The translations under genes were made by a program, and so were the position numbers. Of a stretch of DNA of 64,000 nucleotides, positions 3,630-61,056 are shown one piece after another. The stretch's first letter is position 1; the number at the start of each line of letters is the position of its first letter. Source of the DNA: Eledone cirrhosa (taxonomy: Eukaryota); the NCBI GenBank assembly GCA_964016885.1, contig OZ024741.1, positions 219,108,001-219,172,000 of the forward strand, given 5' to 3'. The notes under the pieces were generated by a model, which was not told where the DNA came from, did no database searches, and was given only the letters and a program-made list of their open reading frames with translations.

Positions 3630-3720
3630 TGAAGGCTTAGTGGTAGGAGCGTTTGACTCATGATCATAAGGTTGTGGATTCAATTCCTGTTGCATTGGGT
3701 TCTTGAGCAAGATAACCTTA
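3630..3720 (+). mobile_element. Degenerate tRNA-derived SINE head with start of CORE-like domain
   Basis: GGCTTAGTGG A-box, GGATTCAATTCC B-box, TTGAGCAAG; similar to 39966-40155. Confidence 0.55.
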
Positions 3721-7000: not shown

Positions 7001-7380
7001 GGTAGATTGGCAGTATCGGTAGAGGGTCTGACGCTATGCTTTGCAGCACAGAGTTACGGCCCTTTACGGTCTGGGTTTAAATCCCGCCAAGGTTAACTTT
7101 GCCTTTCATCCTTACGGGGTCGATAAAATAAAGTACCAGTAATGTACTGGGTAATTGCTGATCTTGTGCCTAAAGTAGAAACAATTTTAACAGAATATAA
7201 TTGTTTCTACTTTTGGCACAAGGCCAGCAATTACCCCAGTGTATTACTGGTACTTTATTTTATCGACCCCGTAAGGATGAAAGGCAAAGTGAACCTTGGC
7301 GGGATTTGAACTCAGTCCGTAAAGGGACGTAACTATGCTGGAAAGCATGGCGTCAGACCCTCTACCGATACTGCCAATCA
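7001..7380. mobile_element. Tail-to-tail inverted pair of tRNA-SINEs (7001-7185 plus, 7200-7380 minus)
   Basis: GATTGGCAGTATCGGTAGAGGGTCTGACGC at 7005 and its reverse complement at 7350-7379; same SINE core in both. Confidence 0.85.
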
Positions 7381-24912: not shown

Positions 24913-25885
24913 ACCCCGCCATCTCCAACACCACATGTCCAGTGTGATGAAGTGTGATAGGTGAATCCTCGTAGATAAACGTGAAATAATTATGTTACTA
25001 TTGTTGCTGGTGTTGCTGTTACTGTTGTTGTTGTTGTTTAGCCCTCGGTCAACCCTGACCCCCGCCATCTCCAACACCACATGTTCAGTGTGATTAAGTG
25101 TGATAGGTGAATCCTCGTAGATAAACGTGAAATAATTATGTTACTATTGTTGCTGCTGTTACTATTGTTGTTGTTTAGCCCTCGGTCAACCCTGACCCCC
25201 GCCATCTCCAACACCACATGTTCAGTGTGATGAAGTGTGATAGGTGAATCCTCGTAGATAAACGTGAAATAATTATGTTACTATTGTTGCTGGTGCTGCT
25301 GTTACTATTGTTGTTGTTGTTTAGCCCTCGGTCAACCCTGACCCCCGCCATCTCCAACACCACATGTCCAGTGTGATGAAGTGTGATAGGTGAATCCTCG
25401 TAGATAAACGTGAAATAATTATGTTACTATTGTTGCTGGTGCTGCTGTTACTATTGTTGTTGTTGTTTAGCCCTCGGTCAACCCTGACCCCCGCCATCTC
25501 CAACACCACATGTCCAGTGTGATGAAGTGTGATAGGTGAATCCTCGTAGATAAACGTGAAATAATTATGTTACTATTGTTGCTGGTGTTACTGTTACTAT
25601 TGTTGTTGTTGTTTAGCCCTCGGTCAACCCTGACCCCCTTACCATCTCCAACACCACATGTCCAGTGTGATGAAGTGTGATAGGTGAATCCTCGTAGATA
25701 AACGTGAAATAATTCTGTTACTATTGTTGCTGCTGTTACTATTGTTGTTGTTGTTTAGCCCTCGGTCAACCCTGACCCCCTTGCCATCTCCAACACCACA
25801 TTTCCAGTGTGATGAAGTGTGATAGGTGGATCTTCGTAGATAAACGTGAACTAATTCTGTTACTATTGTTGCTGGTGTTGTTTAA
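24913..25885. repeat. ~146-bp tandem repeat, ~6.7 copies
   Basis: CCCCGCCATCTCCAACACCACATG.. recurs near 24913, 25059, 25195, 25342, 25488, 25634, 25776. Confidence 0.95.
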
Positions 25886-29153: not shown

Positions 29154-29454
29154 TTAACACCAAATCAGGCCTGATTTAGTACACCTACAATCAACGACAT
29201 CCCAGTTACGACTATCTTGTCTTTTATTCATATTTAAGAGCATCTAGGATTACATAAGCTTATTAAAGATGATAGTGGGCAGTTTGAAAGAGATTTGGCT
29301 GCTACTTCTAGCGGATTGATCGATCGCGTATAGACTCTGTTGTTGTTTAGCCCTAGGTCAGCCGTGATCAATCATATCTGCATTCCAACAGTAACCATCC
29401 TGTCTTTTTCCTGTGTGCTGGGACCACAATATTCAACGTGGTCACTCTCTTTCT

Positions 29455-37995: not shown

Positions 37996-38199
37996 CTTTT
38001 TTTGTTTAATATAAGGAACTGTTTCATTGTTTTATTCATTATTTTTTTAAAATTTTATCTTGACTCTGTATTCCGTTTATCTTTCACCGAAAGTGATTTT
38101 TGAATGCATCTCTTCTTTCCATGATATCCGGATTACATTGAGTTCTTCATACGGATTGGACACTACCGTAAACTCTTGGTAGATTTATCTACATATATA

Positions 38200-39930
38200 T
38201 ATTGATCTAGATGAAATGCAGTTCGGGTTTGTGTCAGGCAAAAGTACCACAGACGCTCTTTTCATTGTACGACAACTACAGGAGAAGTACCTAACTAAAA
38301 GTAAACCCCTATACTTAGCTTTTGTTGACTTGGAGAAAGCCTTCGACAGAGTCGCCCATTCCATTATCTGGTGGGCTCTTAGAAAACTAGGTGTTAACGA
38401 ATGGCTTGTGAGAGCTATACAAGCCATGTATAAAGAAACAGTCAGCAAGGTTAGAATTAACAACGAATATAGTGAAGAGTTGAGTGTAAAAGTTGGTGTT
38501 CATCAGGGCTCTGTTCTTAGCCCCCTACTATTTATTATTGCCCTTCAGGCTATAACAGTGGAGTTCAAGACCGGCTGCCCATGGGAACTCCTATACGCAG
38601 ATGATCTAACGCTCATAGCTGAATCAATGGCCGAGCTAGAGAAGAAATTCCAAACATGGAAGCACGGCCTAGAATCAAAAGGCCTTAAAATTAACCTATT
38701 CTAGTTTGTAGGAAAGAAAATAAGGCGCCGGTCCCTTCCGGGAAATGGCTATGCTCAGTGTGTAGGAAAGGCGTGGGTAGAAACTCCATTTTGTGTCCCA
38801 AATGCAAAGTATGGGTGCATAAAAGATGTAGTGGGATCACCGGTAAGCTAACTAAGAACATAGATTTTACATGTGGCCGGTGCTCTGGTGCAATAAGTAG
38901 CAGCAAGTGCCCATAAAATACTAGCTCTTTCAATTGCGCAGAGGGTTCTATAGAAATAGTGGACAGCTTCCATTACCTGGGTGACAAAATCAGAAGTTGG
39001 GGAGAGTGCTCTGAAAGTACAGTAGTTAGAGTCAGAACTGGATGGAAAAAGTTCAGAGAGCTTATAACACTGTTAGCCGCTAAAGGGTTCTCCCTAAAAA
39101 TGAAAGGCAGGTTGTATGATGCCTGCATACAAACAGCATTGTTGCATGGCAGTGCAACCTGGGCATTGTGTGCAGAGGATATACGCAGACTAGAGAGGAA
39201 CGAAGCTTGCATGCTCCGCTGGATGTGTAATAGTAATATACGTGAACGGCAAAGCATAAACGAACTAAGGGAAAAATTAGAAATAAGAGGGATCAGATGC
39301 TGTTTACTTGAGAGAAGACACTACGTTGGTATGGTCACGTGATGCGCATGAAAGACGACAGCTGTATAAAAAAGTGCAGGGCAATAAAGATAGACGGTAG
39401 CCACGGAGTAGGCAGACCCAGAAAAACCTGGGACGACCTGATAGATTCTGACCTCACACACTTACACATCTCCAAGACAATGTCACTGGACTGAGATCTT
39501 TGGCGCTGCACAGTAATACAGAAGACCCGCCTTGCCTAAATACAAAGTAAACGTACTACAGTCAGTAGGCATCTCTAACAAAATACGCCCCCATCCCACA
39601 CCACCCCCACCCCAGCCACACCGCCCCTTTCAATGTAAAGTTATGTTGGTACCACAACATCCAGTCCGAAACAAATGAGATCGTGTAGGTGTCACGACAA
39701 AAAAACACACAGTCCACGCTGTAATGTGGCCGTGTAGGTAACACGGTAAAAACCTCCCAGTCCCACACTGTAAATGTGGTTGGTGTTAGGAAGGGCATCC
39801 AGCTGTAGAAAAGCCGCCAGACAGTCCTATGCGAGCAAGACAACCACTCTTGCCTCAAGCGGGAAAACTCCCGTCCAAACCCATGCAAGCGTGGAACATG
39901 GACGTTAAACGATGATGATGATGATGATGA

Positions 39931-39965: not shown

Positions 39966-39968
<3 letters not shown>

Positions 39969-40155
39969 AGGTACATGGCTTAGTGGTTAGAGCATTGGCC
40001 TTGCAATCGAAAGGTTGTGAGTTCAATTCCTTGAGCAAGAAACTTTATTTCACATTGCTCCAGTTTACTCAGCTGTAGAAATGAGACACCAGTTCCTATC
40101 ATCCCACTGTAAAGTGGACGTGTAGGCGCCACGGCAAAAAAGCACCCAGCACTCA
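39966..40155 (+). mobile_element. tRNA-derived CORE-like SINE with RTE-derived tail (3' truncated)
   Basis: TGGCTTAGTGG A-box, GAGTTCAATTCC B-box, CORE-like segment, RTE 3'UTR repeat. Confidence 0.8.
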
Positions 40156-40157
40156 TA

Positions 40158-40197
<40 letters not shown>

Positions 40198-40821
40198 AAG
40201 GGTCTCTCGGGAAAGGTTCTTATTAAAAATATTAAAGGGGCCTTTTCTGAGGGATTTTTTGAAGGCTTTTTGAATTAACCTTTAATTGATTAGTTTCTTT
40301 CAACTTAGTAGGGATTATCAAAACTTCGTAAATTTTCTGAAAAGGGTTTTTTATCTCTGGGGAAGAAAATTTTTTTCTTTCGAAAAAATTTTTTTTCTCT
40401 CGAAGGAATTTTTTAGGAAACTTTATATTTTTATTTTTTTATTTTTTTATTTTTTTTATTTTTTTATTTTTTTAGTCTCTTAATCTCTTCTGGTTTATTA
40501 GGTTTATTGGGGCTTATAAGCTTTATGCACTTATTGAGGGATTTTTTAAAGTGCTTCTACGAGATCCCAAGTCTTTTACTTTTAATGCGTAAATTATAAA
40601 TTATCTAATTTTTAACCTTCAATCCCTGACTCCTAGGCCCTTTTCAAATTCTCTTAACTCCCCATAACCCATCCCTTTTACAACTCCGACAACTAATATA
40701 AAAGAGCCCCCTTAGAATATAGACCCCAAATATACAAGCGGAGCTGCTGATGTATACCACAATTTCAAACTGCTAATCTTGAGTGAAACGTTGATGTAAA
40801 TAATGAACTTGCAATCACCTG

Positions 40822-40877
40822 TTATATGCCTTGAAAAGTCCCACCATATGGTCGGACGAAACGGCTGTCGGCAATAA
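40822..40877 (+). ncRNA. Minimal type I hammerhead ribozyme, U3-A8 variant (pseudo-LTR 1)
   Basis: TTAT-A-TGCC / TTGAAAA / GTCC..GGAC / GAAAC-GGCT-GTC / GGCA-ATAA; predicted cleavage after C40869. Confidence 0.8.
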
Positions 40878-41083
40878 ATTTATTATAATGTCATAATAGT
40901 TCCTTTGTTCTTTTTCATTAATATTTCTGCTCTGCTTATACGCATAGAGCTTAACTAGCTACCGTCGCATATTTGGTAGGTCAGGCGTGATCATCGTGAT
41001 TCACATACGACCTACCATACATATTGCTTATTTAGCTCCCTCCGGTAGAGCTTAACCTTCACTGAAAAACACACCGCCCTGGG

Positions 41084-43695
41084 ATGGCTTTTCAATACAC
41101 CGACAGTATGCTGACAAAGGACCATCTTCCGTTATCACTTAAGAATATACCCATACCACCAAGGGGTACTTATGAAAAGCAGCTTATAGCCAGCGTTAAT
41201 TCGTTTGTAAGGAGAATAAGATGGCGCACATTCCACTTCGATAGGCGCCGTACCGCCCCACTAGAGAGTCCATCGAATAATAAGTATGGATTTAGGACAT
41301 TTAGGAGCCCGCCCATAACCCTCTACTCGATAAATTTGAGAGTGACCTATTGTCTCTCGTCCGGTCTATTAGGTATAAAAGGAAAAACGGTAAGCGTAGC
41401 GGCTTCCAAGCTAAGTTAGAATCACTAGTTAAATCTTTTAAGGACAGAAATTGTATACTCGTACCCTCGGACAAGACTAGGAATATGTACAATCTGAGTT
41501 ATGAGGAATACCGCGGATTCATATACAATGAGCTACATAAAAACTATAAAAAAACCACTGTAGCCAACCTAAATGAGATTAACAGGGAGGCTAAAGTGAT
41601 AGTAACGAAGCTAGGATTAGAGAAATGCACACAACCTTACACCCTCCGACAACCAAAGTTCACATTGAAAGATCATAAGGAGGACTTTGCAAGTAGCCCC
41701 TCTGTCAGGCTCATTAGCCCCTCTAAATCTGACATAGGGATTATAAATAAAAAAATACTAGATGAAGTCATACCGAAAGTTAAGGACAGGATTAGCCTGG
41801 ACCTATGGGGAAACACTGCAGAAGTGATAAAGTGGTTCTCAAGCATTAGCAACCACAAATCACTATGCTTCATCCAGTTCGATATAGACTCCTACTATAT
41901 GTCTATATCCCCCATACTACTGAATAAGGCGCTCATGATGGCAATGCGGACGGGCGGACTCACTAGATCCCAGATTGACATAGTCCTTGCCGCTCGTAAA
42001 ACAATTATCACATTTGAGGATGAATTGTGGACGTGCAAGAACACTCGTAATAACTTCAACATCACTATGGGGTCTAGTGACTCAGCACAGGTGACAGACC
42101 TCGTCGGATTGTACTTGCTCAAGGAGCTCAACGAGCAGTTCCCACACCTCAGAGGTGGGCTATACCATGACGACGCGTTGCTTACTGTGGAGTTTAAACG
42201 ACACAACCTAGAAAGAACTAGAAAGGACCTATATAAATTCTTCAAGAACTTTAACCTATCAATAACTATGGATAGAAAGAGTAAGGTAGTCAACTTTCTA
42301 GATGCCACACTAGACCTAGATAAGTTAGAATATACACCGTACCATAAACCTAACGAGAGGCTGACATACGTCAATGCCAACTCCAACCACCCAGGCTCAG
42401 TCCTCAAAGCAATAGTTAAGGGAGTATCTAGTAGGATTAGCGGACTATCTAGCAGCGTGACCGCATTTGAGGCGAACGCGGAGTATTACAATAAGGCGTT
42501 AGCTGGGTCAGGGCACAAAGATAAACTCCATTATATTGAGACAGGCGGCACCACCCCACCACCCCAACCCAGCACTGTAATCACATATAATATGTCCATG
42601 GGAGATGGAGGGAGAGCTAGAAAGACAAATAGGGACATTAGGAATTTAGCTAAGAACAACAACACTCGCAATGCAGACACGGATAGGGCCCACGTGCCTA
42701 GAAAGCGCTACGCCGCCCCAAGCAAGTCCAACAGTGAAAACGGGGGCCAGAGGCCTAGGAGATTCGAGACCAACACACATACCACTGGGAGCCCAGCAAC
42801 CACACCTGGTAGAACCCGTAACAATATAGATGAAGGGAGGGTAAGCAGCATAGGGGATAAGAAACGCAGTGTAAGGAATAGAAGATGTGATAGTACCTTC
42901 TTTAACCCGCCCTTCAACTCTAATATTACTACAGACCATCCCAAATCTTTTTTCTCTTTAATAGATAGGAACTTCCCCCCAGGTAGGTACGGTAGTGTCA
43001 TCAATAAGAATACTATCAAACTATCGTACTCAACAACCCCTAATCTGGCCTCGCACCTAGCTAAGACCAATAAGAGTAAGATTAAAGAGGGACTTAAGGC
43101 CATCCGAAATAGTGAACCATGCCAGTACACACGACAACACGGGACCAACCCACTGAGTGAAAGACCCAGGGGGATAACAGGCAATAGAACCGGTCCCACT
43201 AGGCAGCCCCGCGGCCGCTTGGAGGGACATGCACCCCTGATTGAGGAGCATGACCCTATTAGAAAGTGTAATTGCAGACGGAAGGACAAATGCCCACTAG
43301 CTGGACACTGCCTTATTAGGAACGTAGTATATGCCTGTAACGTAACCACAGACACGTATACTAAGGCGTATGTGGGGTCGACCGCTAATGAGTTCAAGAC
43401 GAGATTCAACGCCCACCAGCATAGCTTCTGATATGAGAAGCTTAAAAATACCATGTCGTTAGCGGGGCACATACATAACTTAAAACAAACAAAAACCCCC
43501 TACACACTAAGCTGGAGATGCCTTACTAAAGCTCCTCCATATAGCTCGTTGAGCAGGTTTTGTAGCCTGTGCCTAACTGAATCTCATGCCATAGTATTCT
43601 CAGGACTCAACTTGCTCAACAGGAGGTCAGAAATCTTCTCGTCCTGCCCCCATACTATACTTAGCTCTTTCTATTTCTTCAGACCAGACACATAG
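41084..43695 (+). pseudogene. PLE reverse transcriptase-GIY-YIG ORF, copy 1 (frameshift ~41320, in-frame TGA 43429-43431)
   Basis: SLKNIPIP; PSDKTRNMY; TLKDHK; RLISP; FDIDSYY; MGSSDSA; GLYHDD; NFLDATL; YHKPN..SNHP; FNPPF; CNCRRKDKC; VVYAC..YVG; CSLC; LLNRRSE..CPH. Confidence 0.9.
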
Positions 43696-45044
43696 CCCTG
43701 ACCCCACCCTGTCCCGCACATGGCTGCCCCGCTGGCGAATAGGGTGCTCTTGAGTAACCCCGGCCGCATTGATGCCTCGGCTCCCCGATTGCCGATGGGG
43801 ACCCTGGTGAGGAACAGTCGACCTTGTGTCCCACTTGCCAACTTGGGATTCGTGGCAGCATTGTTGCTGGGCACCCTGGGGGCAGCTGATGCCTGCGGTG
43901 TGGGACATTGTGAGTGCCTGGACCCACGTTGACTAATTGGGGGAGGTGCCGTCGGAGATGTATGTCAACAAATTCGGGAACTTGCCCAAGGAAACAGTAA
44001 CAGAACACCCAATATGGCGGCCGCTCCCTGCCTATAACCAATCAACCCCCCCTCCCCGCCTAATAAACCTCCGCCCAAATAGATGCCCCTCCCCATTCTC
44101 CCCCATTCACTTCTTTTAAGTTAGTTCTTCTTTATTATTAGTGGTTCTTTTTGAGTTAGTTCTTTATTAATAGGGATTTTTTTTGTATATTACCACGGTT
44201 GACTTAATGGGCTTGGAGAGTTGACTCCCTTGATGTCTGACCACTCGATAAGTTAGGGGTTGTGCCTCCTGAGCAGGGGTGTGTCTAGCTAGTCTACCTG
44301 CTGTCTGCTACTACCTGAGACTGGACACGGTCGTAGCCACAGGCCAGCGCATGCGCGATAGCACGGGATATATATTTCCTGCTAGTCACCCCGTGTAATA
44401 TGATACCCCGAGATTCCATGCATGAGATTCACCAAAGCATGCGCAGTCTTAACCGGGAGATGACATGCGAACTTGAAAATACCACAAGAGAGACCCTTTG
44501 GATAGCGTAGACGCCGGACCATACCCGCAAATATATACCCTGATCTGTCTTGAATATGCATGGCTGACGGAATATGGATAACACGACCACCATGTAAGCT
44601 GGAACCGACCCCTACAACAAACAAAGAAGGGACAGCCCTTTGCATTTGACCAGTCGCATGTGTGCTTGGAGTTCGTGAGAGGAGGTGATATTAGCGAGAG
44701 ACGCAATATACTACCCCAGTCAAATCCACACTGGTTTTTTTACCAATATAGCATGTAAACCAATACATCCTATGCAGCGAGACCTTGGATTTAGAACCGA
44801 CAGGCTGATCTATCGCAAACGCGTGCAACCCCCGAAACTAAAAGATCGAACGGACCACACCCAGCAACCACTAGCTATTTGATCCACAGGTACATTTCCC
44901 AGAGAGTCCACACAGCTGATAGTGAATCCCAGTTGATTCGTGAACTCTGAACTTTTAAACAAGACCAACTGTGCCTGGAGCTATGCAGATGACTACATAC
45001 GCACAATGGATATCGCACCCACAAAGTCACCTGTATTGTTCATC

Positions 45045-45300
45045 TTGCTGTATGTGTGTAAAGTATCAGTGCGTGGGATATCCCTGAGTACATTTTCTTG
45101 ACTATTAATTGTTTCTTGATTGTTTGTTAATTAGGCAGGAATATACCATTATGTCTTTGTTAATCCTATGTGTTGCTGTATGTGTGTAAAGTATCCGAGC
45201 GCGGGATATCCCTGAGCTAATTTTGCTTGACTGTTAATTGTTTATTGATTATTTGTTAATTAGGCAGGAATATATTATTATGTCTTTGTTAATCCTGTAT
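45045..45300. repeat. 128-bp direct duplication in the PLE 3'UTR (also in copies 2 and 3)
   Basis: TTGCTGTATGTGTGTAAAGTATC..GTCTTTGTTAATCCT occurs twice, at 45045 and 45173. Confidence 0.85.
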
Positions 45301-46094
45301 TAAGAATTTTATAATAATTTTTTGATAGTACATTATTAGATTACTGAAGCTACCTTATACCTTCTTAAAAATACATCTTATAATTATTGTCTTTTTGCTT
45401 ATGTATTTTCTTACTTATCATTTTCTTTAATCTTGCCCAACTTGATAAGCTCTTTGAATTGCTCCCTAATTAAATTACTTAAATTACTTAAATTATTTTA
45501 TCTATTATACCTAAGTTGTATCTGTTGAAGCAGCCCTTTAAAAATCCTCGGATATCCCAAATCCCGTAATTTTTAACTTTTAATTTATAATTTTCCTCAA
45601 TTCGTTTATATATATACTTAAAGGCTCTCTAAAATTTTAATTCTTCGAAGGGTCTCTCGGGCGAGGTTATATTAAAAAATTTTTTTCTCTCGAAGGAATT
45701 TTTTAGGAAACTTTATATTTTTATTTTTTTATTTTTTTATTTATTTAGTCTCTTAATCTCTTCTGGTTTATTAGGTTTATTGGGGCTTATAAGCTTTATG
45801 CACTTATTGAGGGATTTTTTAAAGTGCTTCTACGAGATCCCAAGTCTTTTACTTTTAATGCGTAAATTATAAATTATCTAATTTTTAACCTTCAATCCCT
45901 GACTCCTAGGCCCTTTTCAAATTCTCTTAACTCCCCATAACCCATCTATTTTACAACTCCGACAACTAATATAAATGAGCCCCCTTAGAATATAAACCCC
46001 AAATATACAAGCGGAGCTGCTGATGTATACTACAATTTCAAACTGCTAATCTTGAGTGAAACGTTGATGTAAATAATGAACTTGCAATCACCTG

Positions 46095-46150
46095 TTATAT
46101 GCCTGGAAAAGTCCCACCATGGGGTCGGACGAAACGGCTGTCGGCAATAA
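46095..46150 (+). ncRNA. Hammerhead in pseudo-LTR 2, core mutated (TGGAAAA)
   Basis: As 40822-40877 but U4>G and an altered helix II loop. Confidence 0.7.
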
Positions 46151-46356
46151 ACTTATTATAATGTCATAATAGTTCCTTTGTTCTTTTTCATTAATATTTC
46201 TGCTCTGCTTGTACGCATAGAGCTTAACTAGCTACTGTCGCATATTTGGTAGGTCAGGCGTGATCATCGTGATTCACATACGACCTACCATACATCTTGC
46301 TTATTTATCTCCCTCCGGTAGAGCTTAACCTTTACTGAAAAACACACCGCCCTGGG

Positions 46357-48954
46357 GTGGCTTTTCAATACACCGACAGTATGCTGACAAAGGACCATAT
46401 TCCGTTATCACTTAAGAATATACCCATACCACCAAGGGCAGCTTATAGTCAGCGTTAATTCGTTTGTAAGGAGAATAAGATGGCGCACATTCCACTTCGA
46501 TAGGCACCGTACCGCCCCACTAGAGAGTCCATCGAATAATAAGTATGGATTTAGGACATTTAGGAGCCCGCCCATAACGCTCTACTCGATAAATTTGAGA
46601 GTGACCTATTGTCTCTCGTCCGGTCTATTAGGTATAAAAGGAAAAACGGTAAGCGTAGCGGCTTCCAAGCTAAGTTAGAATCACTAGTTAAATCTTTTAA
46701 GGACAGAAATTGTATACTCGTACCCTCGGACAAGACTAAGAATACGTACAACCTGAGTTATGAGGAATACCGCGGATTCATATACAATGAGCTACATAAA
46801 AACTATAAAAAAACCACTGTAGCCAACCTAAATGAGATTAACAGGGAGGCTAATGTGATAGTAACGAAGCTAGGATTAGAGAAATGCACACAACCTTACA
46901 CCCCTCGACAACCAAGGTTCACATTGAAAGATCATAAGGAGGACTTTGCAAGTAGCCCCTCTGTCAGGCTCATTAGCCCCTCTAAATCTGACATAGGGAT
47001 TATAAATAAAAAAATACTAGATGAAGTCATACCGAAAGTTAAGGACAGGATTAGCCTGGACCTATGGGGAAACACTGCAGAAGTGATAAAGTGGTTCTTA
47101 AGCATTAGCAACCACAAATCACTATGCTTCATCCAGTTTGATATAGACTCCTACTATACGTCTATATCCCCCATACTACTGAATAAGGCGCTCATGATGG
47201 CAATGCGGACAGGCGGACTCACTAGATCCCAGATTGACATAGTCCTTGCCGCTCATAAAACAATTATCACATTTGAGGATGAATTGTGGACGCGCAAGAA
47301 CACTCGTAATAACTTCGACATCACTATGGGGTCTAGTGACTCAGCACAGGTGACAGACCTCGTCGGATTGTACTTGCTCAAGGAGCTCAACGAGCAGTTC
47401 CCACACCTCAGAGGTGGGCTATACCGTGACAACGCATTGCTTACTGTGGAGTTTAAACGACACAACCTAGAAAGAACTAGAAAGGACCTATATAAATTCT
47501 TCAAGAACTTTAACCTATCAATAACTATGGATAGAAATAGTAAGGTAGTCAACTTTCTAGATGCCACACTAGACCTAGATAAGTTAGAATATACACCGTA
47601 CCATAAACCTAACGAGAGGCTGACATACGTCAATGCCAACTCCAACCACCCAGGCTCAGTCCTCAAAGCAATAGTTAAGGGAATATCTAGTAGGATTAGC
47701 GGACTATCTAGCAGCGTGACCGCATTTGAGGCGAACACGGAGTATTACAATAAGGCGTTAGCTGGGTCAGGGCACAAAGATAAACTCCATTATGTTGAGA
47801 CAGGCGGCACCACCCCACCACCCCAACCCAGCACTGTAATCACATATAATATGTCCATGGGAGATGGAGGGAGAGCTAGAAAGACAAATAGGGACATTAG
47901 GAATTTAGCTAAGAACAACAACACTCGCAATGCAGACACGGATAGGGCCCACGTGCCTAGAAAGCGCTACGCCGCCCCAAGCAAGTCCAACAGTGAAAAC
48001 GGGGGCCAGAGGCCTAGGAGATTCGAGACCAACACACATACCACTGGGAGCCCAGCAACCACACCTGGTAGAACCCGTAACAATATAGATGAAGGGAGGG
48101 TAAGCAGCATAGAGGATAAGAAACACAGTGTAAGGAATAGAAGATGTGATAGTACCTTCTTTAACCCGCCCTTCAACTCTAATATTACTACAGACCATCC
48201 CAAATCTTTTTTCTCTTTAATAGATAGGAACTTCCCCCCAGGTAGGTACGGTAGTGTCATCAATAAGAATACTATCAAACTATCGTACTCAACAACCCCT
48301 AATCTGGCCTCGCACCTAGCTAAGACCAATAAGAGTAAGATTAAAGAGGGACTTAAGGCCATCCGAAATAGTGAACCATGCCAGTACGCACGACAACACG
48401 GGACCAACCCACTGAGTGAAAGACCCAGGGGGATAACAGGCAATAGAACCGGTCCCACTAGGCAGCCCCGCGGCCGCTTGGAGGGACATGCACCCCTGAT
48501 TGAGGAGCATGACCCTATTAGAAAGTGTAATTGCAGACGGAAGGACAAATGCCCACTAGCTGGACACTGCCTTATTAGGAACGTAGTATATGCCTGTAAC
48601 GTAACCACAGACACGTATACTAAGGCGTATGTGGGGTCGACCGCTAATGAGTTCAAGACGAGATTCAACGCCCACCAGCATAGCTTCTGATATGAGAAGC
48701 TTAAAAATACCATGTCGTTAGCGGGGCACATACATAACTTAAAACAAACAAAAACCCCCTACACACTAAGCTGGAGATGCCTTACTAAAGCTCCTCCATA
48801 TAGCTCGTTGAGCAGGTTTTGTAGCCTGTGCCTAACTGAATCTCATGCCATAGTATTCTCAGGACTCAACTTGCTCAACAGGAGGTCAGAAATCTTCTCG
48901 TCCTGCCCCCATACTATACTTAGCTCTTTCTATTTCTTCAGACCAGACACATAG
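46357..48954 (+). pseudogene. PLE RT-GIY-YIG ORF, copy 2
   Basis: ATG>GTG, 14-bp deletion, shared frameshift, YRDN catalytic mutation, shared TGA at 48688-48690. Confidence 0.9.
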
Positions 48955-51369
48955 CCCTGACCCCACCCTGTCCCGCACATGGCTGCCCCGCTGGCGAATA
49001 GGGTGCTCTTGAGTAACCCCGGCCGCATTGATGCCTCGGCTCCCCGATTGCCGATGGGGACCCTGGTGAGGAACAGTCGACCTTGTGTCCCACTTGCCAA
49101 CTTGGGATTCGTGGCAGCATTGTTGCTGGGCACCCTGGGGGCAGCTGATGCCTGCGGTGTGGGACATTGTGAGTGCCTGGACCCACGTTGACTAATTGGG
49201 GGAGGTGCCGTCGGAGATGTATGTCAACAAATTCGGGAACTTGCCCAAGGAAACAGTAACAGAACACCCAATATGGCGGCCGCTCCCTGCCTATAACCAA
49301 TCAACCCCCCCTCCCCGCCTAATAAACCTCCGCCCAAATAGATGCCCCTCCCCATTCTCCCCCATTCACTTCTTTTAAGTTAGTTCTTCTTTATTATTAG
49401 TGGTTCTTTTTGAGTTAGTTCTTTATTAATAGGGATTTTTTTTGTATATTACCACGGTTGACTTAATGGGCTTGGAGAGTTGACTCCCTTGATGTCTGAC
49501 CACTCGATAAGTTAGGGGTTGTGCCTCCTGAGCAGGGGTGTGTCTAGCTAGTCTACCTGCTGTCTGCTACTACCTGAGACTGGACACGGTCGTAGCCACA
49601 GGCCAGCGCATGCGCGATAGCACGGGATATATATTTCCTGCTAGTCACCCCGTGTAATATGATACCCCGAGATTCCATGCATGAGATTCACCAAAGCATG
49701 CGCAGTCTTAACCGGGAGATGACATGCGAACTTGAAAATACCACAAGAGAGACCCTTTGGATAGCGTAGACGCCGGACCATACCCGCAAATATATACCCT
49801 GATCTGTCTTGAATATGCATGGCTGACGGAATATGGATAACACGACCACCATGTAAGCTGGAACCGACCCCTACAACAAACAAAGAAGGGACAGCCCTTT
49901 GCATTTGACCAGTCGCATGTGTGCTTGGAGTTCGTGAGAGGAGGTGATATTAGCGAGAGACGCAATATACTACCCCAGTCAAATCCACACTGGTTTTTTT
50001 ACCAATATAGCATGTAAACCAATACATCCTATGCAGCGAGACCTTGGATTTAGAACCGACAGGCTGATCTATCGCAAACGCGTGCAACCCCCGAAACTAA
50101 AAGATCGAACGGACCACACCCAGCAACCACTAGCTATTTGATCCACAGGTACATTTCCCAGAGAGTCCACACAGCTGATAGTGAATCCCAGTTGATTCGT
50201 GAACTCTGAACTTTTAAACAAGACCAACTGTGCCTGGAGCTATGCAGATGACTACATACGCACAATGGATATCGCACCCACAAAGTCACCTGTATTGTTC
50301 ATCTTGCTGTATGTGTGTAAAGTATCAGTGCGTGGGATATCCCTGAGTACATTTTCTTGACTATTAATTGTTTCTTGATTGTTTGTTAATTAGGCAGGAA
50401 TATACCATTATGTCTTTGTTAATCCTATGTGTTGCTGTATGTGTGTAAAGTATCCGAGCGCGGGATATCCCTGAGCTAATTTTGCTTGACTGTTAATTGT
50501 TTATTGATTATTTGTTAATTAGGCAGGAATATATTATTATGTCTTTGTTAATCCTGTATTAAGAATTTTATAATAATTTTTTGATAGTACATTATTAGAT
50601 TACTGAAGCTACCTTATACCTTCTTAAAAATACATCTTATAATTATTGTCTTTTTGCTTATGTATTTTCTTACTTATCATTTTCTTTAATCTTGCCCAAC
50701 TTGATAAGCTCTTTGAATTGCTCCCTAATTAAATTACTTAAATTACTTAAATTATTTTATCTATTATACCTAAGTTGTATCTGTTGAAGCAGCCCTTTAA
50801 AAATCCTCGGATATCCCAAATCCCGTAATTTTTAACTTTTAATTTATAATTTTCCTCAATTCGTTTATATATATACTTAAAGGCTCTCTAAAATTTTAAT
50901 TCTTCGAAGGGTCTCTCGGGCGAGGTTATATTAAAAAATTTTTTTCTCTCGAAGGAATTTTTTAGGAAACTTTATATTTTTATTTTTTTATTTTTTTATT
51001 TTTTTATTTTTTTATTTATTTAGTCTCTTAATCTCTTCTGGTTTATTAGGTTTATTGGGGCTTATAAGCTTTATGCACTTATTGAGGGATTTTTTAAAGT
51101 GCTTCTACGAGATCCCAAGTCTTTTACTTTTAATGCGTAAATTATAAATTATCTAATTTTTAACCTTCAATCCCTGACTCCTAGGCCCTTTTCAAATTCT
51201 CTTAACTCCCCATAACCCATCTATTTTACAACTCCGACAACTAATATAAATGAGCCCCCTTAGAATATAAACCCCAAATATACAAGCGGAGCTGCTGATG
51301 TATACTACAATTTCAAACTGCTAATCTTGAGTGAAACGTTGATGTAAATAATGAACTTGCAATCACCTG

Positions 51370-51425
51370 TTATATGCCTGGAAAAGTCCCACCATGGGGT
51401 CGGACGAAACGGCTGTCGGCAATAA
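51370..51425 (+). ncRNA. Hammerhead in pseudo-LTR 3, core mutated (TGGAAAA)
   Basis: Identical to 46095-46150. Confidence 0.7.
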
Positions 51426-51631
51426 ACTTATTATAATGTCATAATAGTTCCTTTGTTCTTTTTCATTAATATTTCTGCTCTGCTTGTACGCATAGAGCTT
51501 AACTAGCTACTGTCGCATATTTGGTAGGTCAGGCGTGATCATCGTGATTCACATACGACCTACCATACATCTTGCTTATTTATCTCCCTCCGGTAGAGCT
51601 TAACCTTTACTGAAAAACACACCGCCCTGGG

Positions 51632-54229
51632 GTGGCTTTTCAATACACCGACAGTATGCTGACAAAGGACCATATTCCGTTATCACTTAAGAATATACCC
51701 ATACCACCAAGGGCAGCTTATAGTCAGCGTTAATTCGTTTGTAAGGAGAATAAGATGGCGCACATTCCACTTCGATAGGCACCGTACCGCCCCACTAGAG
51801 AGTCCATCGAATAATAAGTATGGATTTAGGACATTTAGGAGCCCGCCCATAACGCTCTACTCGATAAATTTGAGAGTGACCTATTGTCTCTCGTCCGGTC
51901 TATTAGGTATAAAAGGAAAAACGGTAAGCGTAGCGGCTTCCAAGCTAAGTTAGAATCACTAGTTAAATCTTTTAAGGACAGAAATTGTATACTCGTACCC
52001 TCGGACAAGACTAAGAATACGTACAACCTGAGTTATGAGGAATACCGCGGATTCATATACAATGAGCTACATAAAAACTATAAAAAAACCACTGTAGCCA
52101 ACCTAAATGAGATTAACAGGGAGGCTAATGTGATAGTAACGAAGCTAGGATTAGAGAAATGCACACAACCTTACACCCCTCGACAACCAAGGTTCACATT
52201 GAAAGATCATAAGGAGGACTTTGCAAGTAGCCCCTCTGTCAGGCTCATTAGCCCCTCTAAATCTGACATAGGGATTATAAATAAAAAAATACTAGATGAA
52301 GTCATACCGAAAGTTAAGGACAGGATTAGCCTGGACCTATGGGGAAACACTGCAGAAGTGATAAAGTGGTTCTTAAGCATTAGCAACCACAAATCACTAT
52401 GCTTCATCCAGTTTGATATAGACTCCTACTATACGTCTATATCCCCCATACTACTGAATAAGGCGCTCATGATGGCAATGCGGACAGGCGGACTCACTAG
52501 ATCCCAGATTGACATAGTCCTTGCCGCTCATAAAACAATTATCACATTTGAGGATGAATTGTGGACGCGCAAGAACACTCGTAATAACTTCGACATCACT
52601 ATGGGGTCTAGTGACTCAGCACAGGTGACAGACCTCGTCGGATTGTACTTGCTCAAGGAGCTCAACGAGCAGTTCCCACACCTCAGAGGTGGGCTATACC
52701 GTGACAACGCATTGCTTACTGTGGAGTTTAAACGACACAACCTAGAAAGAACTAGAAAGGACCTATATAAATTCTTCAAGAACTTTAACCTATCAATAAC
52801 TATGGATAGAAATAGTAAGGTAGTCAACTTTCTAGATGCCACACTAGACCTAGATAAGTTAGAATATACACCGTACCATAAACCTAACGAGAGGCTGACA
52901 TACGTCAATGCCAACTCCAACCACCCAGGCTCAGTCCTCAAAGCAATAGTTAAGGGAATATCTAGTAGGATTAGCGGACTATCTAGCAGCGTGGCCGCAT
53001 TTGAGGCGAACACGGAGTATTACAATAAGGCGTTAGCTGGGTCAGGGCACAAAGATAAACTCCATTATGTTGAGACAGGCGGCACCACCCCACCACCCCA
53101 ACCCAGCACTGTAATCACATATAATATGTCCATGGGAGATGGAGGGAGAGCTAGAAAGACAAATAGGGACATTAGGAATTTAGCTAAGAACAACAACACT
53201 CGCAATGCAGACACGGATAGGGCCCACGTGCCTAGAAAGCGCTACGCCGCCCCAAGCAAGTCCAACAGTGAAAACGGGGGCCAGAGGCCTAGGAGATTCG
53301 AGACCAACACACATACCACTGGGAGCCCAGCAACCACACCTGGTAGAACCCGTAACAATATAGATGAAGGGAGGGTAAGCAGCATAGAGGATAAGAAACA
53401 CAGTGTAAGGAATAGAAGATGTGATAGTACCTTCTTTAACCCGCCCTTCAACTCTAATATTACTACAGACCATCCCAAATCTTTTTTCTCTTTAATAGAT
53501 AGGAACTTCCCCCCAGGTAGGTACGGTAGTGTCATCAATAAGAATACTATCAAACTATCGTACTCAACAACCCCTAATCTGGCCTCGCACCTAGCTAAGA
53601 CCAATAAGAGTAAGATTAAAGAGGGACTTAAGGCCATCCGAAATAGTGAACCATGCCAGTACGCACGACAACACGGGACCAACCCACTGAGTGAAAGACC
53701 CAGGGGGATAACAGGCAATAGAACCGGTCCCACTAGGCAGCCCCGCGGCCGCTTGGAGGGACATGCACCCCTGATTGAGGAGCATGACCCTATTAGAAAG
53801 TGTAATTGCAGACGGAAGGACAAATGCCCACTAGCTGGACACTGCCTTATTAGGAACGTAGTATATGCCTGTAACGTAACCACAGACACGTATACTAAGG
53901 CGTATGTGGGGTCGACCGCTAACCAGTTCAAGACGAGATTCAACGCCCACCAGCATAGCTTCTGATATGAGAAGCTTAAAAATACCATGTCGTTAGCGGG
54001 GCACATACATAACTTAAAACAAACAAAAACCCCCTACACACTAAGCTGGAGGTGCCTTACTAAAGCTCCTCCATATAGCTCGTTGAGCAGGTTTTGTATC
54101 CTGTGCCTAACTGAATCTCATGCCATAGTATTCTCAGGACTCAACTTGCTCAACAGGAGGTCAGAAATCTTCTCGTCCTGCCCCCATACTATACTTAGCT
54201 CTTTCTATTTCTTCAGACCAGACACATAG
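51632..54229 (+). pseudogene. PLE RT-GIY-YIG ORF, copy 3
   Basis: Same lesions as copy 2; shared TGA at 53963-53965. Confidence 0.9.
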
Positions 54230-56821
54230 CCCTGACCCCACCCTGTCCCGCACATGGCTGCCCCGCTGGCGAATAGGGTGCTCTTGAGTAACCCCGGCCG
54301 CATTGATGCCTCGGCTCCCCGATTGCCGATGGGGACCCTGGTGAGGAACAGTCGACCTTGTGTCCCACTTGCCAACTTGGGATTCGTGGCAGCATTGTTG
54401 CTGGGCACCCTGGGGGCAGCTGATGCCTGCGGTGTGGGACATTGTGAGTGCCTGGACCCACGTTGACTAATTAGGGGAGGTGCCGTCGGAGATGTATGTC
54501 AACAAATTCGGGAACTTGCCCAAGGAAACAGTAACAGAACACCCAATATGGCGGCCGCTCCCTGCCTATAACCAATCAACCCCCCACTCCCCTAATAAAC
54601 CTCCGCCCAAATAGATGCCCCTCCCCATTCTCCCCCATTCACTTCTTTTGAGTTAGTTCTTTATTATTAGTGGTTCTTTTTGAGTTAGTTCTTTATTATT
54701 AGTGGTTCTTTTTGAGTTAGTTCTTTATTAATAGTGATTTTTTTGTATATTACCACGGTTGACTTAATGGGCTTGGAGAGTTAACTCCCTTGATGTCTGA
54801 CCACTCGATAAGTTAAGTGTTGTGCGCCCTGAGCAGGGGTGTGTCTAGCTAGTCTACCTGCTGTCTGCTACTACCCGAGACTGGAGACGGTCGTAGCCAC
54901 AGGCCAGCGCGTGCGCGATAGCATGGAGTATATATTTTCTGCTAGTCACCCCGTGTAATATGATACCCCAAGATTCCATGCATGAGATTCACCGAAGCAT
55001 GCGCAGTCTTAACCGGGAGATGACACGCGAACTTGAAAATACCACTAGAGAGACCCTTTGGATAGCGTAGACGCCGGACCATACCCGCAAATATATACCC
55101 TGATCTGTCTTGAATATGCATGGCTGACGGAATATGGATAACACGACCACCATGTAAGCTGGAACCGACCCCTACAACAAACAAAGAAGGGACAGCCCTT
55201 CGCATTTGACCAGTCGCATGTGTGCTTGGAGTTCGTGAGAGGAGGTGATATTAGCGAGAGACGCAATATACTACCCCAGTCAAATCCACACTGGTTTTTT
55301 TACCAATATAGCATGTAAACCAATACATCCTATGCAGCGAGACCTTGGATTTAGAACCGACAGGCTGATCTATCGCAAACGCGTGCAACCCCCGAAACTA
55401 AAAGATCGAACGGACCACACCCAGCAACCACTAGCTATTTGATCCACAGGTACATTTCCCAGAGAGTCCACACAGCTGATAGTGAATCCCAGTTGATTTG
55501 TGAACTCTGAACTTTTAAACAAGACCAACTGTGCCTGGAGCTATGCAGATGACTACATACGCACAATGGATATCGCACCCACAAGGTCACCTGTATTGTT
55601 CATCTTGCTGTATGTGTGTAAAGTATCAGTGCGTGGGATATCCCTGAGTACATTTTCTTGACTATCAATTGTTTCTTGATTGTTTGTTAATTAGGCAAGA
55701 ATATACCATTATGTCTTTGTTAATCCTATGTGTTGCTGTATGTGTGTAAAGTATCCGAGCAAGGGATATCCCTGAGCTAATTTTGCTTGACTGTTAATTG
55801 TTTATTGATTATTTGTTAATTAGGCAGAAATATATTATTATGTCTTTGTTAATCCTGTATTAAGAATTTTATAATAATTTTTTGATAGTACATTATTAGA
55901 TTACTGAAGCTACCTTATACCTTCTTAAAAATACATTTTATAATTATTGTCTTTTTGCTTATGTATTTTCTTACTTATCATTTTCTTTAATCTTGCCCAA
56001 CTTGATAAGCTCTTTGAATTGCTCCCTAATTAAATTACTTAAATTACTTAAATTATTTTATCTATTATACCTAAGTTGTATCTGTTGAAGCAGCCCTTTG
56101 AAAATTCCCCGGATATCCCAAATCCCGTAATTTTTAACTTTTAATTTATAATTTTCCTCAATTCGTTTATATATATACTTAAAGGCTCTCTAAAATTTTA
56201 ATTCTTCGAAGGGTCTCTCGGGAGAGGTTCTTATTAAAAATATTAAAGGGGCCTTTTCTGAGGGATTTTTTGAAGGCTTTTTGAATTAACCTTTAATTGA
56301 TTAGTTTCTTTCAACTTAGTAGGAATTATCAAAACTTCGTAAATTTTCGGAAAAGGGTTTTTTAACGTGATCTCTGGGGAAGAAAATTTTTTTCTTTTGA
56401 AAAAATTTTTTTTCTCTCGAAGGAATTTTTTAGGAAACTTTATATTTTTATTTTTTTATTTTTTTATTTTTTTAGTCTTTTAATCTCTTCAGGTTTATTA
56501 GGTTTATTGGGGCTTATAAGCTTTATGCACTTATTGAGGGATTTTTTAAAGTGCTTCTACGAGATCCCAAGTCTTTTACTTTTAATGCGTAAATTATAAA
56601 TTATTTAATTTTTAACCTTCAATCCCTGACTCCTAGGCCCTTTTCAAATTCTCTTAACTCCCCATAACCCATCCCTTTTACAACTCCGACAACTAATATA
56701 AAAGAGCCCCCTTAGAATATAAACCCCAAATATACAAGCGGAGCTGCTGATGTATACCACAATTTCAAACTGCTAATCTTGAGTGAAACGTTGATGTAAA
56801 TAATGAACTTGCAATCACATG

Positions 56822-56877
56822 TTATATGCCTTGAAAAGTCCCACCATATGGTCGGACGAAACGGCTGTTGGCAATAA
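56822..56877 (+). ncRNA. Hammerhead in terminal pseudo-LTR 4, U3-A8 core, GUU cleavage triplet
   Basis: TGCC-TTGAAAA-GTCC..GGAC-GAAAC-GGCT-GTT-GGCA. Confidence 0.75.
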
Positions 56878-56971
56878 ACTTGTTATAATGTCATAATAGT
56901 TCCTTTGTTCTTTTTCATTAATATATATATAGTATATATATATACATACATACACACATATATATATATAT

Positions 56972-57762
56972 ATAAAATGCACACAATGTAGGTCCTGGGT
57001 ACACAAGAGATGTAGCGGGATAGCAGGCAAACTAACAGGTAGGGAGAAATATGTATGCAGTAGATGTACAGGGAAATTAGACAGTAGAAGTCGCATTGAT
57101 AGACACATTTTTCAAATGCAGGAGGGCGCTATAGAAGTGGTGGATAGCTTCCGGTACCTATGAGATCAGATTAGCATGGGAGAAGGGTGTTCCGAGGCCA
57201 TAGTAGCTAGAATAAGGACGGGTTGGAAGAAGTTTAGGGAGCTGCTTCCTCTGTTGACGAAGAAGGGTTTCTCCCTGCGTACGAAAGGCCGGTTGTATGA
57301 TGCCTGTGTGAGGAGCGCGATGCTGAATGGTAGTGAGACATGGGCAGCAACTGCAGAGGATATGCGACGGCTGGAGAGAAATGAGGCAAGCATGCTCCGT
57401 TGGATGTACAGTGTAAATGTGCGTGAACGACCCAGCATAAATGTGTTGAGAGAGAAACTGTGTCTGAGAGGGATAGAATGTAGTGTACGGGAGAGGAGAC
57501 TGAGGTGGTATGGACATGTGATGCGCATGGAGGATGACCGATGGGTGAAGAAGTGCCAGGAAATGCCAGTTGAAGGAAGACGTGGTAGAGGTAGACCACG
57601 AAAAATATGGGCGGAGGTGGTGAGAACAGACCTCAGATCATTGAAGCTCACGGTGGAGATGACGAAGGACCGTGACGAGTGGAGAGATGCTGTGCTGAAT
57701 AAGACCCGCCCCACCCTTGCAAGCAGGGAAAAGCGGACGTAAAATGATGATGATGATGATGA

Positions 57763-60800: not shown

Positions 60801-61056
60801 ATATATGTATATATATAAGAAGCAAAGAAAATTTCAATGATACAAAAAGATTTCCTGGTGGAATTTCAGGTGTACTCCTGGTTGGTATCCAGTTTCGGGG
60901 TGAAAATCCAATTAGAAAATCCAACGAATTTTGAGAGGTCCACGTATGCGTTGATATATATATATATATGTAAAAGGTAAACTGAAATAACAACACAATC
61001 GGTACTGTATATGGAAGGGATATATTAGGTTAACGGTTGATATAGCAGGAAGAGGG

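What the first reader, a model, noticed from the sequence alone, without database searches (positions are those of the whole stretch)
40198..56924. Tandem trimer of a hammerhead-bearing, Naiad-like Penelope retroelement with an unusually long structured 3' region
Seen: three ~5.27-kb units plus a terminal pseudo-LTR inside (TA)n. Each unit has a hammerhead, a 5'UTR hairpin, an ~870-codon RT/GIY-YIG frame and ~2.4 kb of non-coding 3' sequence. Established: Penelope-like elements form tandem arrays and carry minimal hammerheads in pseudo-LTRs; the YRDD-type RT, CxCx5C linker (CNCRRKDKC) and CxxC..H endonuclease tail resemble the Naiad clade as I recall it. Inference: a read-through transcript would be cut by the ribozymes into unit-length RNAs that could be linear or circular templates. 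This may be an uncatalogued cephalopod family.
Basis: partly seen in the sequence, partly recalled or inferred. Interest (0 to 1): 0.75.

Follow-up and report, generated by a model that had tools for sequence, protein, structure and literature searches.

The report
Dead Hydra-clade Penelope tandem array
Three head-to-tail copies of a Penelope-type jumping gene of the Hydra group (not Naiad) are really there, but all three are broken in the same places and likely arose by DNA recombination after one copy landed, so the array says little about RNA circles; its sister copies, whose two-armed insertions pair two different fixed ends, likely record how these elements start copying.

Summary
The array is in the assembly: hammerhead periods 5273/5275/5452 bp, inside (TA)n. 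It is a Hydra-clade PLE (C-terminal GIY-YIG, RWR, DKT, CxCx5C, CxxC/CxH), not Naiad, and differs from the published Hydra-1_Obim. No unit has an 870-codon frame: all share a frameshift and a TGA; two lost YRDD and carry a mutated ribozyme core. The 2.4-kb 3' region is real but no more structured than shuffles. Unit 2 is a mutation-free chimaera of units 3 and 1, the internal pLTR is a mosaic, and no sibling with the array's private alleles was found. So it is most likely one decayed insertion amplified twice by unequal crossover (the third unit may be an assembly artefact), not a rolling-circle product. More informative is the family: copies end at two fixed sites 107 nt apart, each just before a bulged hairpin; 41 of 41 two-armed insertions on one contig pair one of each; arms run through the ribozyme cut site. 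The scan noted the hairpins and end pairing before on other DNA of this genome; two internal start sites are published for another PLE.

The parts
40155..40197 (.). (TA)n target microsatellite, left flank
40198..40924 (+). pLTR 1 (starts 672 nt before the predicted ribozyme cut; ends at family end site A)
40822..40878 (+). Minimal type I hammerhead, U3-A8 core variant (UUGAAAA), palindromic stem III 40861-40868; predicted cut 40869/40870
40929..40950 (+). Bulged hairpin A (GCUC..UA GAGC), 4 nt after end site A (40924)
40967..41026 (+). Long 5'UTR hairpin inside the 107-nt 'tail' between end sites A and B
41035..41051 (+). Bulged hairpin B, 3 nt after end site B (41031)
41108..43697 (+). Unit 1 RT + C-terminal GIY-YIG gene, broken (frameshift near 41312, YHDD, TGA 43429-43431)
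43698..45647 (+). Unit 1 non-coding 3' region (GC-rich start, 129-bp duplication 45045-45296, T-rich end); shared with the family, not more structured than shuffles
45648..46197 (+). pLTR 2, shortened by about 180 bp, mosaic of pLTR 4-like and pLTR 1-like alleles, hammerhead U4 changed to G at 46105
46381..48956 (+). Unit 2 gene, broken (14-bp deletion, frameshift, YRDN, TGA 48688-48690); 5' half equals unit 3, 3' half equals unit 1
48957..50906 (+). Unit 2 3' region, no substitution against unit 1
50907..51472 (+). pLTR 3, no substitution against pLTR 2 in 550 columns, 16 bp longer in a T-rich repeat; U4 changed to G at 51380
51656..54231 (+). Unit 3 gene, broken (same lesions as unit 2; TGA 53963-53965)
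54232..56208 (+). Unit 3 3' region
56209..56924 (+). pLTR 4, full length, hammerhead with GUU at the cut site (56869), ends at site A and runs into (TA)n
56925..56974 (.). (TA)n target microsatellite, right flank

Best explanation
This is a three-unit array of a Hydra-clade Penelope-like retrotransposon whose units share the same disabling lesions, and it likely grew from a single insertion by two rounds of unequal crossover, first between the flanking pLTRs and then, very recently, inside the gene. Shown: clade motifs, shared lesions, the chimaeric middle unit, the mosaic internal pLTR, no sibling locus in the assembly. Inferred: the order of events (insert in (TA)n, decay, pLTR-to-pLTR crossover giving a dimer, about 1.6% divergence, crossover between 43129 and 43389 giving the trimer). 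How the family itself likely moves: the RT/GIY-YIG protein nicks both strands of (TA)n and primes two cDNAs on one RNA at two internal sites, A and B, each marked by a small bulged hairpin just 3' of it; the RNA is continuous across the hammerhead cut site; both pLTRs of a new copy come from one template sequence, more likely by a jump between the repeated ends of an uncut linear RNA than by lapping a circle (inferred, untested).
For: Clade: RWR at residue 38, SDKT 121, YRDD 353, CNCRRKDKC 722, YVG 756, CSLCLSE 820, CPH 848 in the family majority frame against PMC8557442 section 11; 641 homologues at E<=1e-10, and of the 120 listed 119 have DK[TS], 112 RW[KR], 109 CxCx5C; DKG-type C-terminal-EN PLEs of the same genome align at only 20-28%, E>=0.001. 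Dead before amplification: frameshift and TGA in 3 of 3 units; TGA in 4 of 50 exact matches genome-wide, 3 of them here, the fourth sharing 1 of 19 private sites; 22 + 14 substitutions private to the array; a private 24-mer occurs only in the three units; 26 aligned segments from 18 further regions share 0 or 1 of the private sites. Unit 2: left of 43129 it sides with unit 3 at 37 of 38 sites, right of it with unit 1 at 49 of 49, no private substitution. pLTR 2 shares a derived allele with pLTR 4 at 40722 and with pLTR 1 at 40882 (and 40819, a site polymorphic in the family), which one circular template would not give. Family: 434 exact A-end+TA and 533 B-end+TA matches; 41 of 41 outward-facing pairs on contig C1 are A+B (39 after collapsing a local triplicate, p 1.6e-12); 7 of 16 B arms that stop short of the cut stop at +51..+58, where A starts (p 2e-5; 0.003 with a 17-nt window); 0 of 40 A arms and 1 of 40 B arms end within 3 nt of the cut; minor alleles sit in both pLTRs of a locus 150 times, in one only 40 times (17 loci); 5' ends of full-length copies pass -690 in 3 of 11 cases against 14 of 15 first-pass arms (p 0.0008).
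Against: pLTR 1 and pLTR 4 differ at 12 of 710 sites, no more than units 1 and 3 (87 of 5256); if all shared private changes arose after insertion 21.7 are expected (P 0.018), so at least part came with the template. A template switch between two transcripts of a dead donor would give the same mosaic pLTR. The mosaic rests on two strict sites. The 180-bp loss in pLTR 2 is not explained. Unit 2's lack of private changes fits an assembly mis-join equally. Some loci do not pair their ends (L006, L013/L021). The hairpins' role is a positional correlation only. The -575 to -672 cluster (8 of 19) could be an RT pause, and the cut-offs -550 and -690 were chosen after seeing the data.
Confidence: 0.62

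Rival explanations
1. The locus holds a real dimer, and the middle unit is an assembly artefact (a mis-join between the two 98%-identical units or two haplotypes).
For: Unit 2 has no private substitution in 5259 columns and switches allegiance once, in a 260-bp stretch where units 1 and 3 are identical.
Against: Unit 3 has one private change (42460 equivalent) inside the part otherwise identical to unit 2, and pLTR 3 is 16 bp longer than pLTR 2; heterozygosity could also give these. Everything else in the report holds under this rival.
Confidence: 0.3
2. The dimer was made in one retrotransposition event: protein from an intact copy copied transcripts of an already dead donor and switched template between their pLTRs; only the third unit is a recombination product.
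For: pLTR1-pLTR4 divergence (1.69%) equals unit1-unit3 divergence (1.65%); a switch inside the pLTR gives the same mosaic; copying in trans is documented for PLEs (PMC3846280 passage).
Against: No donor or sibling with the private alleles in the assembly; both units then also need the donor's own age added to the pLTR difference.
Confidence: 0.18
3. One reading: ribozymes cut a read-through RNA into unit-length pieces that circularise, and rolling-circle reverse transcription laid down the multimer.
For: Proposed in print for PLEs (PMC4209133 discussion); hammerhead conserved with compensatory change; pLTRs pair by locus and arms cross the cut site, as a religated circle would give; 3 of 19 full-length copies have 5' repeats longer than 1.2 kb.
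Against: One circle gives identical pLTRs, not the observed mosaic; unit 2 postdates units 1 and 3; no pile-up of ends at the cut; in the one PLE tested in vitro, ribozyme mutants inserted normally and uncut RNA was the main substrate (PMC11167929); 5' ends cluster at -575 to -672. As a model for the family rather than for this array it keeps perhaps 0.3.
Confidence: 0.12
4. Family ends are simply inherited: B-ended donors are transcribed into flanking (UA)n, which pairs with the nicked target, and the hairpins are incidental.
For: Both ends finish in TAT/ATAT that can pair with (TA)n; 13 of 19 forward ends in the first locus set are B.
Against: Does not explain a homologous hairpin 3-4 nt beyond both sites, the same motif with other upper stems in a sister family, a 709-aa family and the published Hydra-2_Amil tail, nor pLTR pairing by locus.
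Confidence: 0.15

Closest known systems
Hydra clade of C-terminal EN+ PLEs, including Hydra-1_Obim of Octopus bimaculoides (Craig et al. 2021, PMC8557442; sections 6, 11, 12, 15 and supplement parts 1, 2, 7, 52 read)
   Same: RT then GIY-YIG; RW[KR], DKT, CxCx5C, CxxC and CxH, no CCHH; hammerhead near the 3' end; (TA)n target; by eye colinear with the first ~400 residues of Hydra-1_Obim that the supplement row shows.
   Different: Unit 5.2-5.5 kb against 2.1-2.7 kb for the complete listed families; protein 863 aa against 709, with two low-complexity inserts (about residues 479-597 and 660-720); 3' region 2.4 kb; U3-A8 core, whereas all Hydra hammerheads listed in File S2 have C3-G8.
Naiad clade (same paper)
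   Same: PLE RT and GIY-YIG, (TA)n preference, present in cephalopods.
   Different: Naiads have the endonuclease N-terminal, DKA, CCHH, IFD and no canonical hammerhead; in-frame UGA in some Naiads is selenocysteine, whereas the TGA here is a private C-to-T change (46 of 50 matches read CGA).
PAc (Poseidon, Anolis) internal initiation (Frangieh et al. 2024, PMC11167929; first two of four text parts read)
   Same: Two internal RT start sites that define the 'tail'; both target strands nicked and extended; ribozyme cleavage not required in vitro.
   Different: Here the tail is 107 nt (30-40 there), each site has its own bulged hairpin, and two-armed insertions always use one of each; the paper reports no difference in start site between strands and does not report that rule in the parts read.
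Adineta vaga Penelope families (Arkhipova et al. 2013, PMC3846280; 12 passages read)
   Same: Tail on one of two inverted pLTRs; long spacer (0.9-1.5 kb) before the 3' pLTR in Pen1_Av; low-complexity in-frame inserts between RT and EN.
   Different: There spacers differ between copies; here one 2.4-kb region is shared by the whole family.
Cercyon U3-A8 minimal hammerheads of Schistosoma (Cervera and de la Pena 2014, PMC4209133; part 2 of 4 and passages read)
   Same: U3-A8 core covariation, tiny palindromic helix III that suggests dimer action.
   Different: Other clade and host; activity of this motif untested.
Unequal crossover between direct repeats; LINE-1 twin priming (both recalled, from no call)
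   Same: Hybrid middle repeat and chimaeric middle unit; head-to-head arms primed from both target strands on one RNA.
   Different: Here both priming sites are fixed and hairpin-marked.

Membership tests
Hydra clade PLE | Single ORF, RT followed by C-terminal GIY-YIG | tested here: met
   863-aa frame in L010; YRDD at 353, YVG at 756; broken in the window
Hydra clade PLE | RWK motif and DKG changed to DKT | tested here: met
   RWR at 38 (R for K), SDKT at 121
Hydra clade PLE | CxCx5C linker; CCHH absent; CxxC and CxH around the conserved E and N | tested here: met
   CNCRRKDKC, one Cys only inside the GIY-YIG core, CSLCLSE, CPH
Hydra clade PLE | No insertion in fingers | tested here: met
   RT3-RT4 spacing matches the Hydra-1_Obim row by eye; not aligned by tool
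Hydra clade PLE | Hammerhead in the pLTR | tested here: met
   Core and stems by inspection, covariation with a sister family; U3-A8 variant; Rfam negative; cleavage not tested
Hydra clade PLE | (TA)n insertion | tested here: met
Hydra clade PLE | Generally under 3 kb | tested here: not met
   Periods 5209-5854 bp in 18 other two-pLTR loci; descriptive, not diagnostic, in the paper
Hydra clade PLE | RT groups with named Hydra references in a tree | not testable with these tools
   Named references were readable only as paper text; proxy: 34-45% identity to Hydra-motif homologues against 20-28% to DKG-type PLEs
Naiad | N-terminal GIY-YIG before RT | tested here: not met
   EN lies C-terminal
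Naiad | DKA motif, CCHH, CX2-5CxxC linker | tested here: not met
   DKT, no CCHH, CxCx5C (definitions)
Naiad selenoprotein | Conserved in-frame UGA at Cys positions | tested here: not met
   TGA in 4 of 50 matches, at an Arg codon; SECIS not searched
Neptune / Nematis / Penelope-Poseidon | DKG and CCHH | tested here: not met
Non-LTR retrozyme | Short non-coding tandem units with an intact hammerhead in each | tested here: not met
   5.3-kb coding-derived units; 2 of 4 cores changed (definition)

The most novel reading that the evidence does not exclude
Hydra PLEs transpose by hairpin-directed twin priming plus a retrovirus-like strand transfer: a dimeric RT docks on two bulged hairpins in the 5'UTR of one uncut RNA, primes one cDNA from each target strand (always one A and one B), jumps from the RNA's 5' repeat to its 3' repeat, and stops at the transcription start, which regenerates both pLTRs from one template without any circle or ribozyme cut. 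The long hairpin between the sites would shrink the 107-nt tail to the usual 30-45 nt.
Probability: 0.25. Interest if true: 0.75.

Novelty: new member of a known kind. Interest (0 to 1): 0.42.

Why it matters
The array itself is ordinary: a dead transposon multiplied by recombination, and a warning that PLE tandems are not by themselves evidence of rolling-circle copying. The family is a Hydra PLE of about twice the published size. Its value is as a test bed for the unresolved PLE mechanism: about a thousand exact ends at two fixed sites, a strict one-of-each rule, short arms that stop where the other primer sits, and a cluster of 5' ends give sharp predictions (start sites, hairpin mutants, cap site, circle or not) for an in vitro system of the kind that now exists for one other PLE.

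Tried and rejected
Rfam at gathering score: only a weak tRNA-like hit, no hammerhead. Pfam and PDB sequence searches: nothing over cut-off. Selenocysteine reading of the shared TGA: rejected. Hidden ORF in the 3' region: none over 109 codons in the family majority sequence. Structured 3' region: rejected for 120-nt windows with 30 shuffles each, unit 1, sense strand; long-range structure not tested. Similarity of the 3' region to that of the sister family: only T-rich low-complexity matches. Sequencing runs: no RNA holder listed, which says nothing on expression; laying contigs X1-X4 and RAD reads X6 gave only short family-level pieces and cannot tell dimer from trimer. A GIY-YIG family search of the genome gave DKG-type and one other C-terminal-EN type but no Naiad among the 13 regions translated (of 150 matches), so no direct comparison with a Naiad RT was made. 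No tree with named clade references was built. The p-value for B arms used n=17 by miscount; one search corrects it to 16. Literature searches showed no paper describing this family or a strict A/B pairing rule; subscription papers, bioRxiv supplements, Repbase, Dfam and the repeat library of PMC13282606 were not seen, so the family may be catalogued there. Lunse et al. (PMC5785218) was not held and is known only as a citation.
Full report
1. Observation. Self-alignment shows a direct array from 40198 to 56924 flanked by (TA)n. Hammerhead anchors lie at 40833, 46106, 51381 and 56833, periods 5273, 5275 and 5452 bp. pLTR 1 (40198-40924) and pLTR 4 (56209-56924) are full length; pLTRs 2 and 3 lack about 180 bp. 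Units differ by 0.7%, 1.0% and 1.65%. The longest frame in each unit is 708 codons. Against the family majority all three units carry a 1-bp frameshift at codon 69 and TGA at codon 776; units 2 and 3 also lose 14 bp at codon 20; the RT motif reads YHDD, YRDN, YRDN. Of 27 other loci taken from the 40 scored matches (2137 candidates), three have an unbroken 863-aa frame. So the array is real in the assembly but dead.

2. Clade. The frame reads RT then GIY-YIG, with RWR, SDKT, YRDD, CNCRRKDKC, YVG, CSLCLSE and CPH. Craig et al. (PMC8557442; abstract, passages, sections 6, 11, 12, 15, supplement parts 1, 2, 7, 52) give these as Hydra features and define Naiads by an N-terminal endonuclease, DKA, CCHH and no canonical hammerhead. 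A protein search gave 641 hits at E<=1e-10; among the 120 listed, 119 have DK[TS], 112 RW[KR], 109 CxCx5C, median length 709.5 aa, identity 34-45%; the only one with a species name is from the bivalve Solemya velum. DKG-type PLEs from the same genome align at 20-28% with E>=0.001. The supplement lists Hydra-1_Obim (2507 bp, 709 aa, CUGAAGA core); by eye it is homologous but a different family. Our protein is longer through two low-complexity inserts at positions where several top homologues also carry inserts; family-shared changes are mostly silent in the core (58 silent, 26 replacement) but not in the inserts (13, 28), while singletons are not filtered (101, 318). No call named the host; earlier scan notes call this genome likely octopus.

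3. Ribozyme. The motif has stem I UUAUAUGCC/GGCAAUAAA, core UUGAAAA, stem II GUCC/GGAC, GAAA, and a self-complementary ACGGCUGU stem III (duplex -9.7 kcal/mol), cut predicted at 40869/40870. A sister family has CUGAUGA with stem I changed on both sides: C3-G8 to U3-A8, a variant reported for Cercyon (PMC4209133). Such minimal motifs cleave weakly and as dimers in that paper. In pLTRs 2 and 3 U4 is G, which by established hammerhead knowledge (recalled) should impair cleavage; these are the two ribozymes that would have to cut a read-through RNA.

4. The 3' region. It is 2445 nt from stop to next cut and belongs to the family (40 of 357 candidates scored, most full length). It folds no better than shuffles (mean z 0.09, 1 of 39 windows below -2), has no long frame, and is about as variable as the rest. 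One copy of a sister family (53% protein identity) has 2393 nt of unrelated sequence in the same place; a 709-aa Hydra family has about 1 kb. Long spacers and in-frame inserts are reported for rotifer Penelopes (PMC3846280 passages). Long: yes. Structured: no evidence.

5. How the array arose. Unit 2 sides with unit 3 at 37 of 38 variable sites left of 43129 and with unit 1 at 49 of 49 to the right, with no private substitution (chance under equal age about 1e-18). It is therefore a very recent unequal crossover within a dimer, or a mis-assembly; reads could not decide. Units 1 and 3 share 36 substitutions absent from the other copies aligned. A private 24-mer occurs only in the three units; the TGA occurs once elsewhere, in a copy sharing 1 of 19 private sites. 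pLTR 2 shares a derived allele with pLTR 4 on its left (40722) and with pLTR 1 on its right (40882; also 40819), the pattern of a crossover between the ends of a monomer. Against this, pLTR 1 and 4 differ at only 12 of 710 sites where 21.7 are expected if all shared changes postdate insertion (P 0.018; 0.17 if half do), and a template switch between two transcripts of a dead donor would give the same mosaic. A single rolling circle would give identical pLTRs and fits worst. Multi-unit arrays are rare: of 28 matches to the 5'UTR hairpin B pattern, three are here, two in a partial dimer on C1 whose units share no lesion, two in a small duplicated stub.

6. How the family likely moves. Copies end at two sites, A (40924, 55 nt past the cut) and B (41031, 162 nt past), 434 and 533 exact end+TA matches. 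Each is followed after 4 or 3 nt by GCUC-stem-2-nt bulge-GAGC. I took the hairpin lead from earlier scan notes and checked it here; the same motif with other upper stems is in the sister family, the 709-aa family and the published Hydra-2_Amil tail (by eye). On C1, the only contig fully listed (77 A, 86 B), all 41 outward-facing pairs within 12 kb are A+B; 81 ends are unpaired. For 40 two-armed insertions (37 C1 regions and 3 C2 regions fetched, one duplicate dropped, one region holding two), 38 A arms and 24 B arms cross the cut, 0 and 1 stop within 3 nt of it, and 7 of the 16 B arms that stop short do so at +51 to +58, where the A primer sits. This points to two primers on one RNA that is continuous across the cut. 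The two pLTRs of an insertion share minor alleles 150 times against 40 one-ended cases, with 4 position-specific alleles (17 loci; alleles include subfamily markers; in the stricter count, 17 of 24 two-sequence events are same-locus). So both pLTRs come from one template sequence, or are converted later. Full-length copies start 575-672 nt before the cut in 8 of 19 cases and pass -690 in 3 of 11, against 14 of 15 first-pass arms (p 0.0008, cut-offs post hoc). An uncut linear RNA starting there, primed in its 5'UTR where both hairpins exist, with a jump between its repeated ends, explains all of this; a religated circle explains all but the 5' cluster. Frangieh et al. (PMC11167929, parts 1-2 of 4) showed for a Poseidon element two internal start sites that define the tail, extension of both strands, a predicted dimer, and no need for ribozyme cleavage in vitro.

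7. Verdict. Observation partly confirmed; Naiad reading wrong; ribozyme-cut rolling-circle origin of the trimer unlikely. A new, unusually long member of the Hydra clade, in a dead array made likely by recombination. The mechanistic regularities are the interesting part; the tail and two start sites are in print, and the hairpins and end pairing were noted earlier in this scan on other DNA. Other papers seen: bioRxiv 10.64898/2026.07.22.740005 (part 1 of 5), PMC6765202 and PMC13282606 (passages), PMC2377424 (abstract).

Noticed in passing
L032:1677-6320 (G000:C4, beside L004): Sister Hydra family, 53% protein identity, canonical CUGAUGA hammerhead, unrelated 2.4-kb 3' region, long inverted arm; a similar ~70% fragment lies in L116.
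   Followed up: partly
L071-L100: A 709-aa Hydra family with many open frames (64,293 first-look candidates for the query), about 1-kb 3' region and a UUCG-capped bulged hairpin before its ATG; not Hydra-1_Obim by eye.
   Followed up: partly
L198, L200, L201, L208: DKG-type C-terminal-EN PLEs (Neptune-like by recalled motifs) with open frames up to 938 and 1096 codons, and one YVDD type.
   Followed up: no
L022, L024, L025 (G000:C4 near 320.0, 320.27, 320.9 Mb): Same insertion with the same flanks three times: a segmental triplication; one copy has an unbroken frame.
   Followed up: partly
L006: 5' and 3' ends carry alleles of different subfamilies (hammerhead loop and hairpin A), suggesting a template switch or conversion.
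   Followed up: no
L161:2840-3400: 285-bp duplication holding a stub of this family (hairpin B joined to a B end) next to an inverted stub of the 709-aa family inside (TA)n.
   Followed up: no
G000:C1:147202944-147211664; L158/L159: Small two-armed insertions repeated two or three times at 4-5 kb spacing, passengers of local tandem duplications.
   Followed up: no
window 9199-15071: 17-bp satellite, 336 copies.
   Followed up: no
window 330-696, 781-1833, 7005-7379: Near-perfect palindromes or inverted repeats (89-97%) beside (TA)n; may be fold-back PLE stubs.
   Followed up: no
window 38183-39530, 57164-57742, 58617-60833: RTE-like non-LTR fragments on both sides of the array (recalled label), one with a 738-codon frame on the minus strand; tRNA-derived SINE-like piece at about 39967-40080 and a weak Rfam tRNA hit at 3628-3697.
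   Followed up: no
window 24914-25877, 26363-29154: 146-bp tandem repeat and a 2.8-kb GTT/GGT-rich array.
   Followed up: no
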